From the IMG/VR virus record IMGVR_UViG_3300042260_000241: 64,000 nucleotides of DNA; one strand, 5' to 3'. The DNA is from a virus (lineage: Duplodnaviria; Heunggongvirae; Uroviricota; Caudoviricetes). Every line of letters begins with the position of its first letter. Position 1 is the first letter of the stretch. A program made the position numbers and the translations under genes. The notes under the pieces are model-generated. The model did not search any database. It saw only the letters and a program-made list of their open reading frames with translations, and was not told the DNA's origin. Positions 44,448 to 50,130 of the stretch are shown here, one piece after another.

Positions 44448-45131
44448 ATGTTCTATTTAATGATTAAAACACATAATAAAACTAAATTAAAATATCTTTG
44501 CAAATGTACTAATAGAGATCCATACAAATATAAAGGTTCCGGAGTTTATTGGAAAAGACATCTCAAAGATCATGGAAGCGATATTACTACCGAAGTGATA
44601 TTTCAGACTGAAGATTTAAATGAATTTAATTCAGCGTGTTTACGCTATTCTAAAGAATTTAATGTAAAAGATTCTGATGAATGGGCTAACCTAATAGAAG
44701 AAAATGGATTAGATGGAGGTACAACTCACACTAACCCGTATTGGCTAAAAGGATTTAAACATTCAAATGAATCAAAAAGTAAAATATCAGAATCTTCGAA
44801 AAAGAAAAGAGTACCTCTATCTGAAAACGTTAAACAAAAGATAAGCGATGCTTTACGCGGAAAATCTATAAAATGTTCTCCTAAGGGCGTTGCAAAAACA
44901 GAAGAACATAAACGTAAAGTATCTCAAGCTTTAAAAGGAAAGCCTAAGAATTTTTCTAAAAATGGTTTAGAAAATATGAAGACGTCAGTTAGTGAACGCC
45001 AAAAAAGAAAATATAAATGTTCAGTTTGTGGTAAAATAGGAAATGCTGGGCAAATCGGTCGTTATCATAAAGAATGTATGAAGGAGTTATCATGGAACAA
45101 AATGGAAATCAATCAGAGCGAGCATCAGTAA
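44448..45131 (+). mobile_element. Free-standing GIY-YIG (Seg-like) homing endonuclease with NUMOD3-like repeats
   Basis: FYLMIKTH...KYLCK, YKGSGVYW..H, repeated (H/L)Sx(E/N)xKxKIS motifs, C-terminal CxxC. Confidence 0.8.
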
Positions 45132-45589
45132 AAGTTTTAAAAGAAGCAATGGATTTGCAGAATCGAAAGTCACAAGATTATCAGAATCCTTTGAGCCGTG
45201 TACGCCAAGCCGATCACTATCCGCGTGGCGTTTATACTATCCTTGACACCATTAATGGCAAGATGCTTCGCATGTATTCTGTATTAGAAACTATGGAACA
45301 AGGTGGCAAAGTCAATTTTGAATCTATTGAAGATTCTGCAATTGATATGATTAACTACGCGTCATTTCTTGTTGCATATATGCGTGGTGATATCGATGGT
45401 CAAGAAACGGGCAAGGATATCTTCAATCGTCGTGTAAGCAAAGCAACACATCCTACTACAGATTTGTATCCTGCAAAGTTCCGTGCAATCACCAAAGAAC
45501 AAACAACTCTTGATGCACGCAATTTTACAAATATTGTACCACAGGATGAAGTTGGAAAGTACGTACCTACTGGAAGATTTGAAGAATGA
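45092..45589 (+). CDS. Nucleotide-modification-associated domain protein (Nmad1/DUF1599-like)
   Basis: AAGGAG Shine-Dalgarno at 45081; RKSQDY, KMLRM, ESIEDSAIDMINYASF. Confidence 0.7.
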   Translation: MEQNGNQSERASVKVLKEAMDLQNRKSQDYQNPLSRVRQADHYPRGVYTILDTINGKMLRMYSVLETMEQGGKVNFESIEDSAIDMINYASFLVAYMRGDIDGQETGKDIFNRRVSKATHPTTDLYPAKFRAITKEQTTLDARNFTNIVPQDEVGKYVPTGRFEE

Positions 45590-46341
45590 GTTACGATTAT
45601 TACAATATGAAAACATGTCATGAAATTCGCCAAGAATTCGCTAGACTTTATCGTCAGCAAAAGTTTGTAACAGATAAATCCGGCGTTAAAACCGTTGAAA
45701 TCATGGGTGCTAGCTTCTGGGCTAATTCACCTATGATCTTTGGTGCAGTCAATGAAGACTACGTTCAACGTGAACTTGACTGGTATAAGTCACAATCCTT
45801 GAACGTAAATGATATTCCCGGTGGACCTCCAGCTATTTGGAAACAAGTTGCTGATAAAGATGGAATGATCAACTCTAACTATGGCTGGTGTATCTATTCA
45901 GCAGAAAACAATCATCAGTTTGCACACGTTGTAACTGAACTTGAAGAACGTCCAGATTCTCGTCGTGCAACGATGATTTATACACGTCCCACGATGTGGG
46001 GTGATCACAATAAGAATGGTCGTTCTGACTTCATGTGTACTAACAGCGTGCAATATATGATTCGCAATAATCGAATCTATGCTATCGTACAAATGAGAAG
46101 TAATGATGCATGGGCTGGATATCGCAATGACTATGCTTGGCAGAAATATGTTCTGCAGGAAGTCAGAAATGAATTGCAGTATCGTGGAAAGTTTTATGAT
46201 TGCGGTGAAATCTTTTGGAATGTAGGTTCACTTCACATTTATGAACGTCAATTCTATTTGCTTGATCATTACATAAAGACGCACGAATTGTCTATAACTA
46301 AGGAAGAATATGACAAACGCTATAAGCAAGCGACTGTCTAA
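45586..46341 (+). CDS. gp42: dCMP hydroxymethylase (T4 gp42 homologue)
   Basis: DKSGVKTVEI.GASF, INSNYGW, PDSRRA.MIYTRP, SDFMCTN, MRSND..GYRNDYAWQ (cytosine-specifying Asp), GSLHIY; near-colinear with T4 gp42 as recalled. Confidence 0.9.
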   Translation: MSYDYYNMKTCHEIRQEFARLYRQQKFVTDKSGVKTVEIMGASFWANSPMIFGAVNEDYVQRELDWYKSQSLNVNDIPGGPPAIWKQVADKDGMINSNYGWCIYSAENNHQFAHVVTELEERPDSRRATMIYTRPTMWGDHNKNGRSDFMCTNSVQYMIRNNRIYAIVQMRSNDAWAGYRNDYAWQKYVLQEVRNELQYRGKFYDCGEIFWNVGSLHIYERQFYLLDHYIKTHELSITKEEYDKRYKQATV

Positions 46342-48158: not shown

Positions 48159-48949
48159 ATATTTGCATAGTTGGCCATGGTGTTGTTGGTAAAGCTGTAC
48201 AACATGGTTTTACCAACAATTTGACACATCTGTATGTTGTAGATCCTCAGTACGATACATATATAGATTCGTTATATGATTTGTTTAAACCAGACATTGT
48301 TTTTATATGTGTTCCAACACCAACTACGAAAGATGGGATAGACTCTTCTATAATTGAAAGTGTATTAAAAGAAATTAGTTTGCGTGAACATAAGCCTATA
48401 GTTGTAATAAAGTCTACTGTTACGCCCGATGTTTGTGATAAACTTTCTTCTATATACTCACCTATAGTTTATAATCCAGAATTTCTAACTGAAGCAAATT
48501 GTATTAATGATTTTGTTAATCCAAAATTTATTTTGCTTGGCGGTGAAACACGCAACGTATTAGAAGTTGCAGAAGCGTATTCACAATATTCTTTATGCAA
48601 CCCATGTCCAGTCTATATGGTTGATGAAAAAACTGCGTGTTTGATTAAATATACGTTGAATAGTTTTCTTGCAACCAAAGTTGTATTTTTCAACCAAATG
48701 TATGACATATATAAAAAGTCTGGCGCTGATATCACTTGGGAAAATTTTATAAAGATCATATCAAACGATGATCGAATCGGAGATACTCATATGAATGTTC
48801 CAGGTAAAGATGGTATGCGTGGATTTGGTGGCATGTGCTTTCCAAAAGACACTAAAGCTATTATTCATTATGCTAAAACAGTGGGTGCACCATTTAGTAT
48901 TCTTGAAGAAGTTGTTGATATAAATTATAAATTGCGAGATATGAAATGA
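48155..48949 (+). CDS. UDP-glucose/GDP-mannose dehydrogenase family protein lacking the C-terminal domain
   Basis: GHGVVG Rossmann motif, ICVPTP, IKSTV, NPEFL, KY..NSFLATK, GFGGMCFPKD; ends at 264 aa. Confidence 0.85.
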   Translation: MNICIVGHGVVGKAVQHGFTNNLTHLYVVDPQYDTYIDSLYDLFKPDIVFICVPTPTTKDGIDSSIIESVLKEISLREHKPIVVIKSTVTPDVCDKLSSIYSPIVYNPEFLTEANCINDFVNPKFILLGGETRNVLEVAEAYSQYSLCNPCPVYMVDEKTACLIKYTLNSFLATKVVFFNQMYDIYKKSGADITWENFIKIISNDDRIGDTHMNVPGKDGMRGFGGMCFPKDTKAIIHYAKTVGAPFSILEEVVDINYKLRDMK

Positions 48950-50130
48950 AACACGCATCTATTGTACCATTAATTGGTGGAGAAACTCTTGGACAAATTA
49001 ATGCTTTTGGCACAAAGCCTGATTACTTACTTTCGTATACCCCCTTCTCTAATAATGATTCGCACTTGGTTAATTACCTTAAAGATGTTCCTTACATCTT
49101 ACTCGACCAAGGCAGAACGCATCCTGGGTATGTTGATATTGTTAATGCTGTGTGTCCTTGCGCTGGCCTCAGCTCTTTATCTCCATCGGCAAGCTCAGAT
49201 TCTGCTGTTAACGACTGGATGATGATCACTGCAAAATATGTACTTGAGGAAATGAAACCTCAAGTATTTTGGGGAGAGAATGCTCCTCGATTTGCAGGTG
49301 AAATGGGTAAACCAATCGTTGCAAAATTACATAAACTGGCTCGCGAAAATGGATATACAATGTCCATTTATAGGACTAAGTCCCTATTACACGGACTTAG
49401 TCAAGTTAGAGAGCGTTCTTTCTATTTCTTTTGGAAAGGCGATAAGGTACCCATTTTTAAATTCTTTGATGAATATCGTATTAGTATCGAAGATCAAATT
49501 AATTTGGTTAAACCTGAGTCTACTCAACAAGAAGTAACTAATAAGAAAATTCCAAGTAAAGATGATCCTTATTATCGATATGTTCTTGAAGTTATGCATA
49601 AGGGTATTAGTCATTCTGAATTCCAGAAGACACTAATAAAATCTGCTGATGCAATGCATTATATCGAAGAGAATGGACATAACTATCGTATGCTGAAACC
49701 TTTCTTTGAGAAAGAAGGTTATACTAAACTTGCAAATAAAATGGAAGCCATTCAAGCAAAACTTGATGCAGGTGGAAATATTATGAGACGTGCTTCCTAT
49801 ATTCCAAAAGATTATATTGGTGCCTTTGTTGGTCATTTACCAGTTTCGATGACACACCACAGTGAAGATCGATACTTGACTTATCGTGAATGTATGACTA
49901 TTATGGGTTTACCTCAGGACTTTGAGTTATTGAATCCTGCAAAAAACTTAAATCACGTATGTCAAAATGTACCAGTTCATACCGCTACAGATATGGCCAT
50001 GGAGATTAAAGCTACTCTAGAAGGTAGACGTGATATGATGAATAGTACATTGATGTATCAGTTTAATCCTCAGAAAACATATGAACTTAGAGATCCAGAA
50101 GAATTAAGTAGTTTAGAATCCTTCATGTAA
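48946..50130 (+). CDS. DNA cytosine-C5 methyltransferase-like protein with degenerate SAM-binding motifs
   Basis: Motif IV CPC, VI GENAP, VIII QVRER and IX RYLTYRE..IMGLP present; motif I reads VPLIGG and motif X reads CQNVP. Confidence 0.75.
   Translation: MKHASIVPLIGGETLGQINAFGTKPDYLLSYTPFSNNDSHLVNYLKDVPYILLDQGRTHPGYVDIVNAVCPCAGLSSLSPSASSDSAVNDWMMITAKYVLEEMKPQVFWGENAPRFAGEMGKPIVAKLHKLARENGYTMSIYRTKSLLHGLSQVRERSFYFFWKGDKVPIFKFFDEYRISIEDQINLVKPESTQQEVTNKKIPSKDDPYYRYVLEVMHKGISHSEFQKTLIKSADAMHYIEENGHNYRMLKPFFEKEGYTKLANKMEAIQAKLDAGGNIMRRASYIPKDYIGAFVGHLPVSMTHHSEDRYLTYRECMTIMGLPQDFELLNPAKNLNHVCQNVPVHTATDMAMEIKATLEGRRDMMNSTLMYQFNPQKTYELRDPEELSSLESFM

What the first reader, a model, noticed from the sequence alone, without database searches (positions are those of the whole stretch)
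45092..50130. Coupled hmC-hypermodification operon with an unusual enzyme set (gp42 + AGT + sugar dehydrogenase + C5-MTase-like)
Seen: seven genes (Nmad1-like, gp42, dCMP deaminase, Zn mini-protein, AGT homologue, UDP-glucose-dehydrogenase homologue, C5-MTase homologue) all overlap, with five ATGA junctions and one 32-nt overlap, and end at one UUCG terminator. Known: T4 gp42 makes hmdCMP and AGT glucosylates hmC in DNA, and T4 needs neither a sugar dehydrogenase nor a C5-MTase. Inference: this phage builds a non-T4 cytosine modification, such as a uronic-acid-hmC or a further-derivatised hmC, as protection from restriction and CRISPR nucleases.
Basis: partly seen in the sequence, partly recalled or inferred. 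Interest (0 to 1): 0.88.

Follow-up and report, generated by a model that had tools for sequence, protein, structure and literature searches.

The report
Phage hydroxymethylcytosine-sugar operon with two odd enzymes
An uncultured freshwater T4-like phage has one tightly packed operon that, by homology, makes hydroxymethylcytosine and puts glucose on it as T4 does; it also carries a recently inserted short sugar dehydrogenase that may turn the sugar into an acid, and a phage-only methyltransferase-like enzyme that travels with this pathway in many phages and has no known job.

Summary
In detail: seven overlapping genes, five ATGA junctions, one 32-nt overlap and a TTCG-loop terminator.

Homology is firm for three genes. 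They are a T4-type dCMP hydroxymethylase (56% identical to T4 gp42, 21% to the RB69 5-hydroxy-dCMP synthase), a dCMP deaminase and an alpha-glucosyltransferase (41% identical to T4 AGT).

The two unusual genes behave differently across related loci.
- **C5-methyltransferase-like gene: a core partner.** Of 41 related phage loci with enough upstream sequence, 39 carry gp42 and 40 the deaminase. The family is phage-only. It keeps the cytosine-activating motifs, but its cofactor motifs are non-canonical.
- **Short UDP-glucose-dehydrogenase-like gene: a recent accessory cassette.** It is absent from a relative whose neighbouring genes are 93-94% identical. All catalytic residues are kept, but there is no UDP-binding domain anywhere in the genome. 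In other phages the same short form sits with nucleotide-sugar epimerases, aminotransferases and divergent AGTs.

Glycosyl-hmC is therefore very likely. An acidic (glucuronic-type) sugar is plausible but unproven. The methyltransferase-like step is unexplained.

The scan found the same methyltransferase puzzle and a uronic-acid variant earlier on other DNA. Only chemistry can settle the product.

The parts
43743..43771 (+). sigma-70-like promoter candidate (TGTACA-17-TATAAT with an upstream TG) between the primase gene and the first conserved gene of the unit
   Evidence: This is a consensus match only; such sites are not enriched in the region.
43793..44431 (+). 212-aa protein of unknown function, conserved directly upstream of the Nmad1-like gene in relatives
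   Evidence: No Pfam or PHROG match, and the Atlas search gave nothing usable. Homologues lie upstream of the operon in L004 (93%), L043 and L046 (80-84%) and L068/L069 (32-33%).
44448..45131 (+). homing endonuclease (NUMOD3) inserted between the unknown gene and the operon
   Evidence: PF07460, E 3.6e-10; phrog_314. It is absent from the closest relatives L004/L041 and L127.
45092..45589 (+). Nmad1 (DUF1599)-like all-alpha protein; biochemical role unknown
   Evidence: PF07659 matches this protein at E 0.013, below the cut-off, but matches 14 of 16 family members, best E 5.7e-7. The Atlas lead scored 0.93. The AF2 model is helical. Fold searches were inconclusive. There is no similarity to T4 gp56.
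45586..46341 (+). dCMP hydroxymethylase (T4 gp42 type)
   Evidence: PDB 1b5e matches at E 1e-88 over the full length. Identity is 56% to T4 gp42 and 21% to RB69 gp48. The FMCTN Cys and the RND Asp are kept. It is the only thymidylate-synthase-family gene in the genome.
46310..46777 (+). dCMP deaminase
   Evidence: PF00383, E 1.9e-18; phrog_174, E 7e-45. The HAE and PVCNEC zinc motifs can be read.
46774..46956 (+). 60-aa Cys-rich (CxxC ... CxxC) mini-protein; accessory
   Evidence: No family match. It is present in only some relatives.
46953..48158 (+). DNA alpha-glucosyltransferase (AGT) homologue
   Evidence: PF11440, E 4.7e-90, covering profile positions 1-354 of 355. Identity to T4 AGT is 41% over the full length.
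48155..48949 (+). short NAD-dependent sugar 6-dehydrogenase (UDP-glucose-dehydrogenase core without the UDP-binding domain); recently inserted cassette
   Evidence: PF03721 plus PF00984 match, but not PF03720. The GxGxxG motif and GGMCFPKD can be read. The best PDB match is 4a7p residues 84-302. Catalytic residues are invariant in 20 short homologues. No PF03720 lies anywhere in the genome. The gene sits exactly at the AGT/methyltransferase ATGA junction.
48946..50130 (+). C5-cytosine-methyltransferase-like enzyme of a phage-only clade; terminal gene of the operon
   Evidence: PF00145, E 1.7e-15, starting at residue 60. The AF2 model has pLDDT 87, and Foldseek finds MET1, DNMT1, M.HhaI, M.HaeIII and CmoX. 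Family invariants are PLIGG, CPCAGLS, GENAP, QxRxR and CQNVP. gp42 lies upstream in 39 of 41 loci.
50133..50150 (+). intrinsic terminator (7-bp stem, TTCG loop, T-rich tail) ending the unit
62517..63185 (+). ThyX (flavin-dependent thymidylate synthase), the likely consumer of the dUMP made by the deaminase
   Evidence: PF02511, E 1.7e-43, at G000:C1:71258-71836. The ORF is listed.

Best explanation
This is an early or middle operon of an uncultured freshwater T4-like phage that replaces cytosine with a glycosylated 5-hydroxymethylcytosine.

**Shown by homology.**
- gp42 converts dCMP to 5-hm-dCMP.
- The dCMP deaminase feeds dUMP to the phage ThyX.
- After replication, the AGT homologue transfers a hexose from a UDP-sugar to hmC in DNA.

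**Inferred: the short dehydrogenase.** It keeps every catalytic residue of UDP-glucose 6-dehydrogenase but has no UDP-binding domain. It is a mobile accessory cassette dropped exactly into the AGT/methyltransferase junction. It most likely oxidises the C6 hydroxyl of the glucose to a carboxylate. This would happen either on UDP-glucose, so that AGT transfers glucuronic acid, or on glucose already attached to DNA. The result would be a glucuronic-type hmC that differs from that of sister phages.

**Inferred: the terminal methyltransferase-like enzyme.** It belongs to a phage-only clade that is the constant partner of gp42, the deaminase and a variable sugar module. It keeps the Cys/Glu/Arg machinery that attacks C6 of cytosine in flipped-out DNA bases, so it most likely acts on DNA cytosines. 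It would either methylate cytosines that escaped replacement or process hmC itself.

**My odds.**
- hmC plus glycosylation: 0.85
- The dehydrogenase changes the DNA sugar: 0.45
- The methyltransferase-like enzyme acts on phage DNA cytosines: 0.6
- That enzyme uses SAM: about 0.5
For: **Core pathway.**
- gp42 matches PDB 1b5e at E 1e-88, with the catalytic Cys and the specificity Asp kept. It is 56% identical to T4 gp42 and 21% to the RB69 5-hydroxy-dCMP synthase (PMC13326640).
- AGT matches the full PF11440 profile at E 4.7e-90.
- The deaminase and ThyX are both present.
- Tight translational coupling and one terminator define a single unit.

**Dehydrogenase.**
- GxGxxG, PEFL, K...N and C.PKD are invariant in 20 short homologues of 33-49% identity.
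- Short forms sit in nucleotide-sugar contexts: a DegT aminotransferase with two SDRs, a phosphomannomutase, and an epimerase in phage C48C1.
- In other gp42 operons the order is AGT-like, SDR, short dehydrogenase, methyltransferase-like.
- Acidic sugars on phage DNA have precedent: glucuronolactone in SP-15, whose cluster has a UDP-glucose dehydrogenase (PMC5977210), and Kdo on 5hmC (bioRxiv 10.1101/2023.12.21.572611).

**Methyltransferase-like enzyme.**
- Of 41 loci with at least 4.5 kb of upstream sequence, 39 have gp42 and 40 the deaminase.
- The link persists when the sugar module is AGT, TAGT, unknown ORFs, or an NTP-transferase/kinase with two GTs in the cultured Pseudoalteromonas phage XG4.
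- Among 185,579 species genomes, the family occurs only on phage-like contigs of MAGs.
- Motifs IV, VI and VIII are invariant; motif X is also invariant but reads CQNVP in place of the canonical GN. The fold matches DNA C5-methyltransferases.
Against: - There is no chemical evidence at all.
- The dehydrogenase is absent from most close relatives, including one whose neighbouring genes are 93-94% identical.
- The AGT of dehydrogenase-carrying phages differs from that of 15 dehydrogenase-free relatives at only 10 positions, none known to touch the donor sugar. AGT may therefore still use only UDP-glucose.
- The enzyme lacks the domain that normally binds UDP.
- This genome has no SDR partner.
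- No hm-dCMP kinase was recognised: no gp1 and no Tmk.
- If C is fully replaced, a C5-methyltransferase has no free C5 on phage DNA.
- Motif I reads VPLIGG, and the acid at the end of strand 2 is Ser-Tyr. SAM use is therefore uncertain.
Confidence: 0.55

Rival explanations
1. The DNA carries plain T4-type glucosyl-hmC. The dehydrogenase is a mobile auxiliary gene that alters the host UDP-sugar pool or a surface or virion glycan. The methyltransferase-like enzyme is an ordinary SAM-dependent m5C methyltransferase that covers residual cytosines or marks other DNA. Neither changes the hmC adduct.
For: - The dehydrogenase is sporadic and recently gained or lost.
- AGT is essentially unchanged with or without it.
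- Short dehydrogenases occur in many phages with no hmC genes nearby, such as Campylobacter, Microbacterium and cyanophages.
- The methyltransferase-like protein passes the Pfam PF00145 cut-off and has the canonical fold.
- No gp56-type dCTPase was found by BLAST, so replacement of C may be incomplete.
Against: - The dehydrogenase sits precisely between AGT and the methyltransferase-like gene with ATGA coupling on both sides.
- It holds the same position in five other independent gp42 operons.
- The methyltransferase-like family is absent from cellular genomes and restriction-modification contexts.
- Its link to gp42 survives deep divergence and swaps of the sugar module.
- Its region between motifs VIII and IX is conserved rather than variable, unlike sequence-specific R-M methylases.
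Confidence: 0.3
2. The methyltransferase-like enzyme does not transfer methyl. It uses the C6-attack chemistry of C5-methyltransferases on 5-hmC, or on its glycoside, in DNA to exchange, remove or further substitute the 5-substituent. The product would be a base not yet described.
For: - The catalytic Cys, Glu and Arg motifs are invariant, but FxGxG reads VPLIGG, the motif II acid is Ser, the motif III Asp is not conserved, and the motif X Asn aligns with Gln.
- The Pfam match starts only at residue 60.
- The enzyme always accompanies an enzyme that fills C5 before replication.
- C5-methyltransferases without SAM are known in vitro to add or remove hydroxymethyl groups and to couple nucleophiles to hmC. 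This rests on my own knowledge of Liutkeviciute et al. 2009 and 2011 and was not checked here.
Against: - The N-terminal region is strongly conserved (P8, L9, G11, G12, P25, S30, F34, N37, even at 28-30% identity) and folds confidently as a Rossmann-type domain. This fits a retained nucleotide-type cofactor.
- An aromatic residue follows Ser30, as Trp follows the acid in M.HhaI.
- No partner supplying a nucleophile or an alternative cofactor is evident.
- No natural precedent exists.
Confidence: 0.12
3. The methyltransferase-like enzyme is a CmoX-type DNA cytosine C5-carboxymethyltransferase using carboxy-SAM.
For: CmoX (PDB 8yf3) is the best PDB match of the family profile, at E 1.2e-7, and it appears among the Foldseek hits.
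Against: - The defining SPPC motif is VCPC here.
- The defining Arg350 aligns with Gln340 (PMC12783734).
- No CmoA is found in the complete genome.
Confidence: 0.02

Closest known systems
T-even phage glucosyl-hydroxymethylcytosine system (T4 gp42, cd, alpha-glucosyltransferase, with gp56, gp1 and beta-GT)
   Same: - gp42 homologue: 56% identity.
- dCMP deaminase.
- Full-length AGT homologue: 41% identity.
- Pre-replicative hmC followed by DNA-level glycosylation.
   Different: - The genes form one coupled operon.
- There is no recognisable gp56, gp1, beta-GT or Dam.
- ThyX replaces Td.
- An Nmad1-like gene, a short sugar dehydrogenase and a C5-methyltransferase-like gene are added.
Metagenomic ThyS-associated DNA glycosyltransferase clusters (bioRxiv 10.1101/2023.12.21.572611) and the TET/C5-MT/TAGT systems (PMC8256090)
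   Same: - A variable GT module (AGT, TAGT, GT-B) sits next to a pyrimidine C5 enzyme and a dCMP deaminase.
- Sugar-modifying enzymes such as epimerases lie nearby.
- An acidic sugar (Kdo) on 5hmC has been reported.
   Different: Here hmC comes from gp42, and there is no TET in the genome. A C5-methyltransferase-like gene is nevertheless conserved, and without a dioxygenase it has no obvious place. Glucuronic acid on hmC has not been reported in the papers I read.
Bacillus phage SP-15 hypermodification cluster (PMC5977210)
   Same: A phage DNA-modification cluster that includes a UDP-glucose dehydrogenase and glycosyltransferases, with glucuronolactone found on the DNA.
   Different: SP-15 modifies a uracil derivative through a phosphodiester. 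The length of its dehydrogenase was not compared here. The phage is unrelated.
CmoX DNA cytosine C5-carboxymethyltransferase of Synechococcus phage S-B43 (PDB 8yf3; PMC12783734)
   Same: A phage C5-methyltransferase-fold enzyme repurposed for a non-methyl transfer. It is the best PDB match by sequence profile.
   Different: SPPC, Arg350 and CmoA are all absent here.
RB69/DLP3 arabosyl-5-hydroxycytosine clusters (PMC13326640)
   Same: A thymidylate-synthase homologue, sugar-nucleotide enzymes and DNA glycosyltransferases sit in one block near the polymerase. The XG4 relative has a similar NTP-transferase/kinase and HAD set.
   Different: The thymidylate-synthase homologue here is gp42-type (21% to RB69 gp48). 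RB69 has no methyltransferase-like gene of this family.

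Membership tests
dCMP hydroxymethylase (T4 gp42 type) | Thymidylate-synthase fold with full-length similarity to T4 gp42 | tested here: met
   PF00303, E 1.1e-12. PDB 1b5e matches at E 1e-88 over residues 9-246.
dCMP hydroxymethylase (T4 gp42 type) | Catalytic Cys, and Asp at the position of E. coli ThyA Asn177 (dCMP specificity) | tested here: met
   FMCTN and GYRNDYAWQ align with the T4 residues. The rule for these residues is taken from PMC13326640.
dCMP hydroxymethylase (T4 gp42 type) | Closer to hydroxymethylases than to 5-hydroxy-dCMP synthases | tested here: met
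   56% identity to T4 gp42 and 21% to RB69 gp48.
dCMP hydroxymethylase (T4 gp42 type) | Makes 5-hm-dCMP from dCMP and methylene-tetrahydrofolate | not testable with these tools
   This needs an enzyme assay.
DNA alpha-glucosyltransferase (PF11440, AGT) | Full-length match to the family profile | tested here: met
   302.7 bits against a cut-off of 25, covering profile positions 1-354 of 355. Identity to T4 AGT is 41%.
DNA alpha-glucosyltransferase (PF11440, AGT) | Uses UDP-glucose and hmC in DNA | not testable with these tools
   Donor specificity (UDP-Glc or UDP-GlcA) is the open question.
UDP-glucose/GDP-mannose 6-dehydrogenase | N-terminal NAD-binding domain with GxGxxG | tested here: met
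   PF03721, E 7e-17. VGHGVVG can be read. G7, G9 and G12 are invariant.
UDP-glucose/GDP-mannose 6-dehydrogenase | Central domain with the catalytic Cys and the Lys/Asn/Asp/Glu set | tested here: met
   PF00984, E 8e-20. GGMCFPKD, IKYTLN and NPEFLTE align with 4a7p. These residues are invariant in 20 homologues.
UDP-glucose/GDP-mannose 6-dehydrogenase | C-terminal UDP-sugar-binding domain (PF03720) | tested here: not met
   The protein ends at residue 264, equivalent to about residue 302 of the 446-aa 4a7p. No PF03720 lies anywhere in the genome. All 20 relatives are 249-280 aa.
UDP-glucose/GDP-mannose 6-dehydrogenase | Reaches the curated NCBIfam cut-off (TIGR03026) | tested here: not met
   151.1 bits against a cut-off of 189.8.
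DNA cytosine-C5 methyltransferase (PF00145) | Catalytic motifs IV (PC), VI (ENV) and VIII (QxRxR) | tested here: met
   CPCAGLS, GENAP and QVRER are invariant in 22 sequences. They align with M.HhaI and M.HaeIII.
DNA cytosine-C5 methyltransferase (PF00145) | SAM-binding motif I (FxGxG) and the acidic residue of motif II | tested here: not met
   Motif I reads VPLIGG. The end of strand 2 reads Ser30-Tyr31. The motif III Asp is not conserved. The Pfam match starts at residue 60.
DNA cytosine-C5 methyltransferase (PF00145) | Overall fold and Pfam gathering score | tested here: met
   57.7 bits against a cut-off of 22. Foldseek gives probability 1.00 for MET1, DNMT1 and M.HhaI. The NCBIfam TIGR00675 cut-off is not reached: 37 bits against 100.65.
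DNA cytosine-C5 methyltransferase (PF00145) | Binds SAM and methylates cytosine in DNA | not testable with these tools
   No ligand-scoring tool was available. This needs biochemistry.
CmoX C5-carboxymethyltransferase | SPPC motif, Arg350, and a CmoA in the genome | tested here: not met
   The motif reads VCPC. Gln340 aligns with Arg350. No TIGR00740 match at E <= 1. The criteria come from PMC12783734.
Nmad1 (PF07659, DUF1599) | Match to the family profile | tested here: inconclusive
   This protein scores 16.2 bits against a cut-off of 25, at E 0.013. However, 14 of 16 homologues match, best E 5.7e-7. The Atlas lead scored 0.93.
TET/5mYOX post-replicative hmC route | A TET/JBP dioxygenase in the genome | tested here: not met
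   No PF12851 match at E <= 0.1 in the complete genome.

The most novel reading that the evidence does not exclude
The phage-only PLIGG/CQNVP clade of C5-methyltransferase-like enzymes has about 2,000 proteins in the searched collection. It may be a remodelled-cofactor enzyme that acts on 5-hydroxymethylcytosine, or on its glycoside, in DNA. That would add a post-replicative step that no described hmC pathway has. In this phage it would work on a glucuronic-acid-bearing hmC produced with the help of a UDP-domain-less sugar dehydrogenase. The product would be an undescribed DNA base, widespread in aquatic T4-like phages.
Probability: 0.15. Interest if true: 0.9.

Novelty: new variant of a known kind. 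Interest (0 to 1): 0.64.

Why it matters
Modified cytosines decide whether restriction enzymes, CRISPR nucleases and type IV systems can cut a phage. They also supply tools for epigenetic sequencing.

Two things here are testable and not explained by the T4 paradigm.
- **A conserved methyltransferase-like enzyme with no obvious substrate.** A large, phage-restricted clade of C5-methyltransferase-like enzymes is tied to a pathway that should leave no free C5.
- **A minimal sugar 6-dehydrogenase.** It lacks the nucleotide-binding domain and appears to be swapped in and out of DNA-glycosylation operons. This is the pattern expected if phages diversify the sugar to escape glucosyl-hmC-specific defences.

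A cultured relative, Pseudoalteromonas phage vB_Psh_XG4, carries the gp42-GT-methyltransferase-like arrangement. The chemistry could be examined there.

Tried and rejected
- **CmoX-type carboxymethylation:** rejected. There is no SPPC, Arg350 or CmoA.
- **RB69-type 5-hydroxycytosine pathway:** rejected. The thymidylate-synthase homologue is 21% identical to RB69 gp48 and 56% to T4 gp42.
- **TET route:** rejected. The genome has no TET/JBP.
- **Dehydrogenase as a truncated pseudogene or split gene:** rejected. Twenty homologues are all 249-280 aa with invariant catalytic residues, and no C-terminal domain lies elsewhere in the genome.
- **First gene as a T4 gp56 homologue:** there is no BLAST similarity. 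Foldseek and VIA searches of its model gave only generic helical matches; MazG-related chains scored about E 3 and the best Z was 6.4. Its fold class stays open. A separate MazG gene lies at G000:C1:94486-94650.
- **The 212-aa upstream protein as the missing hm-dCMP kinase:** no evidence. No T4 gp1 or Tmk was found.
- **AGT adapted to an acidic donor:** there are only 10 lineage-specific substitutions. One is at an otherwise invariant Gly31, in a turn. This is no usable signal from a single lineage.
- **SDR partner for the dehydrogenase in this genome:** none. The SDRs of other loci could not be assigned to an epimerase or a decarboxylase, because all fell below the equivalog cut-offs.
- **Late-promoter motif TATAAATA:** 7 sites against 7.0 expected, so it is not enriched.
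- **The Iyer et al. 2013 paper on Nmad domains:** it is not held in the library.
- **No nucleotide-level relative among cultured phages**.

Full report
**Where the window lies.** The window is bases 8679-72678 of a 166,832-bp IMG/VR virus record rated complete. The phage is T4-like. Its B-family polymerase, UvsX, DnaB-type helicase and primase lie just upstream of the finding. The polymerase is 51% identical to that of phage C48C1 (Kyanoviridae) and 47% to cyanophage S-RIM8. No cultured phage matches the region at the nucleotide level, apart from a 416-bp stretch of gp42.

**Observation.** All seven genes, their coordinates, the five ATGA junctions, the 32-nt overlap and the TTCG-loop terminator are as described.
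- The first gene starts at 45092, behind an AAGGAG site. It overlaps by 40 nt a NUMOD3 homing-endonuclease gene that the closest relatives lack.
- In those relatives, a conserved 212-aa unknown gene (43793-44431) directly precedes the operon.
- A promoter-like site lies before that gene, so the unit probably starts there.

**The T4-like core.**
- *gp42.* The second gene matches the T4 dCMP hydroxymethylase structure at E 1e-88, with the catalytic Cys and the specificity Asp kept. This matters because some phage thymidylate-synthase homologues make 5-hydroxy-dCMP instead (PMC13326640). The protein here, and those of all related operons, are 45-64% identical to T4 gp42 and only 20-26% to RB69 gp48.
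- *dTMP supply.* gp42 is the only thymidylate-synthase-family gene in the genome. dTMP synthesis falls to a ThyX at 62517-63185. That gives the dCMP deaminase the same role as cd in T4.
- *AGT.* The homologue covers the whole PF11440 profile at E 4.7e-90 and is 41% identical to T4 AGT.
- *Missing T4 genes.* T4 gp56, gp1, beta-GT and Dam have no BLAST-level counterpart, and no Tmk-type kinase was found. A MazG gene exists elsewhere in the genome. The kinase for hm-dCMP is not identified.
- *Nmad1-like gene.* The first gene belongs to a family in which 14 of 16 members match Pfam Nmad1/DUF1599. Its fold and role remain open.

**The short dehydrogenase.**
- *What it keeps and lacks.* The 264-aa protein has the NAD-binding glycine motif and the catalytic Cys, Lys, Asn, Asp and Glu residues of UDP-glucose 6-dehydrogenases. 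It ends before the UDP-binding domain. No such domain lies elsewhere in the genome.
- *Not a broken gene.* Twenty homologues from viral contigs are 249-280 aa, share 33-49% identity with it, and keep every catalytic residue.
- *Contexts elsewhere.* Short forms are common in phages and sit in nucleotide-sugar contexts. Examples are a DegT aminotransferase with two SDRs and a second short dehydrogenase, a phosphomannomutase, and an epimerase in phage C48C1. This argues that they act on nucleotide sugars despite the missing domain.
- *Other gp42 operons.* In five operons (L069, L081/L082, L086, L131, L135) the order is divergent AGT, SDR, short dehydrogenase, methyltransferase-like gene.
- *A recent insertion here.* In this phage's own lineage it is present in L004/L041 (92% identical). 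It is absent from L127, where AGT (93%) and the methyltransferase-like gene (94%) share the same ATGA junction into which the cassette is inserted here.
- *AGT barely differs.* The AGT of carriers differs from that of 15 non-carriers at only 10 positions.
- *Where this leaves the product.* An acidic sugar on hmC is plausible. It has precedents in SP-15 glucuronolactone (PMC5977210) and Kdo-hmC. Whether AGT accepts UDP-glucuronate, or the oxidation occurs on DNA-bound glucose, or the enzyme serves another glycan, cannot be decided here.

**The methyltransferase-like enzyme.**
- *Size and range of the family.* About 2,000 proteins match, all from metagenomes, and 362 viral contigs match. In one genome for each of 185,579 prokaryote species it appears only on 13 MAG contigs, most of which also carry UvsX, helicase or gp42 homologues. 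It is therefore phage-restricted.
- *Link to gp42.* Of 41 loci with at least 4.5 kb of upstream sequence, 39 have gp42 and 40 the deaminase.
- *The middle of the operon varies.* It can be AGT, AGT-like plus SDR plus dehydrogenase, TET-associated glycosyltransferase (PF20691), unknown ORFs, or, in the cultured Pseudoalteromonas phage XG4, a HAD protein, an NTP-transferase/kinase and two GTs.
- *Fold.* The AF2 model (pLDDT 87) matches MET1, DNMT1, M.HhaI and M.HaeIII.
- *Catalytic motifs.* CPCAGLS, GENAP and QxRxR are invariant.
- *Cofactor side.* This part is non-canonical but strongly conserved. Motif I reads VPLIGG. The acid at the end of strand 2 is Ser-Tyr. The motif III Asp varies. Motif X reads CQNVP, with Gln on the M.HhaI Asn304/CmoX Arg350 position.
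- *What can be concluded.* The pocket is remodelled rather than decayed, and SAM use is open. A CmoX-type activity is excluded by its defining features. No TET is present.

**Verdict.** The operon is a new variant of the T-even hmC-glycosylation system. Glycosyl-hmC is very likely. The dehydrogenase probably diversifies the sugar, but this is unproven. The conserved methyltransferase-like step is a real, unexplained feature.

**Earlier scan notes.** Earlier notes of this scan reached similar readings on other genomes. I tested the co-occurrence and motif claims independently here.

Noticed in passing
window 44448-45131: A NUMOD3 homing-endonuclease gene sits between the conserved 212-aa gene and the Nmad1-like gene and overlaps the latter by 40 nt. 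The closest relatives (L004/L041, L127) lack it, so it is a recent mobile insertion inside the transcription unit.
   Followed up: partly
L123 (Pseudoalteromonas phage vB_Psh_XG4, PP712099) 100-6580: A cultured phage carries a gp42-like gene (50% to T4 gp42), a small HAD-like protein, a 559-aa NTP-transferase/kinase, two GT-B-like proteins and a member of the same methyltransferase-like family (30%). It is an experimental handle for this gene pairing.
   Followed up: partly
L003 (Cyanophage S-TIM61, OP053361) 2766-3602 (-) and 5986-7203 (+): The annotated ThyA near the most distant methyltransferase-like homologue (28%) has Asp (GVPLD) where the alignment places the T4 gp42 specificity Asp. 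S-TIM5-type cyanophages may therefore also modify dCMP.
   Followed up: no
L039 2043-6819: A viral contig carries a DegT-family aminotransferase, a short dehydrogenase, two SDR epimerase/dehydratases and a second short dehydrogenase in a row. This looks like a phage-encoded amino-sugar or pentose nucleotide pathway built on the UDP-domain-less dehydrogenase.
   Followed up: partly
window 47043-47045 (AGT codon 31): Gly31 is invariant in T4 AGT and in 15 dehydrogenase-free relatives. It is Ser in the two dehydrogenase-carrying phages (the window and L041). This is one lineage only, so it is no basis for inference.
   Followed up: partly
window 50158-50165: TATAAATA (the T4 late-promoter consensus) lies just after the terminator and 27 nt before the next gene (50192). 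The motif is not enriched in the window: 7 sites against 7.0 expected.
   Followed up: yes
window 51940-53963: The genes downstream of the operon include DUF6267 (E 9e-108) and a DUF6321-containing protein. A first-stage note suggests T4-like capsid-targeting leaders on this block.
   Followed up: no
L127-L139 (genome contigs): Every 'bacterial genome' hit of the methyltransferase-like family lies on a MAG contig, assigned to Aquiluna, Pirellulales, Planctomycetaceae, Flavobacteriaceae and others. Most of these contigs also carry phage UvsX, helicase or gp42 homologues, so they look like mis-binned phage DNA rather than host genes.
   Followed up: yes
G000:C1:94486-94650 (outside the window): A MazG-family gene (PF03819, E 6.4e-8) is a candidate for the dCTP-clearing role that gp56 has in T4.
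   Followed up: no
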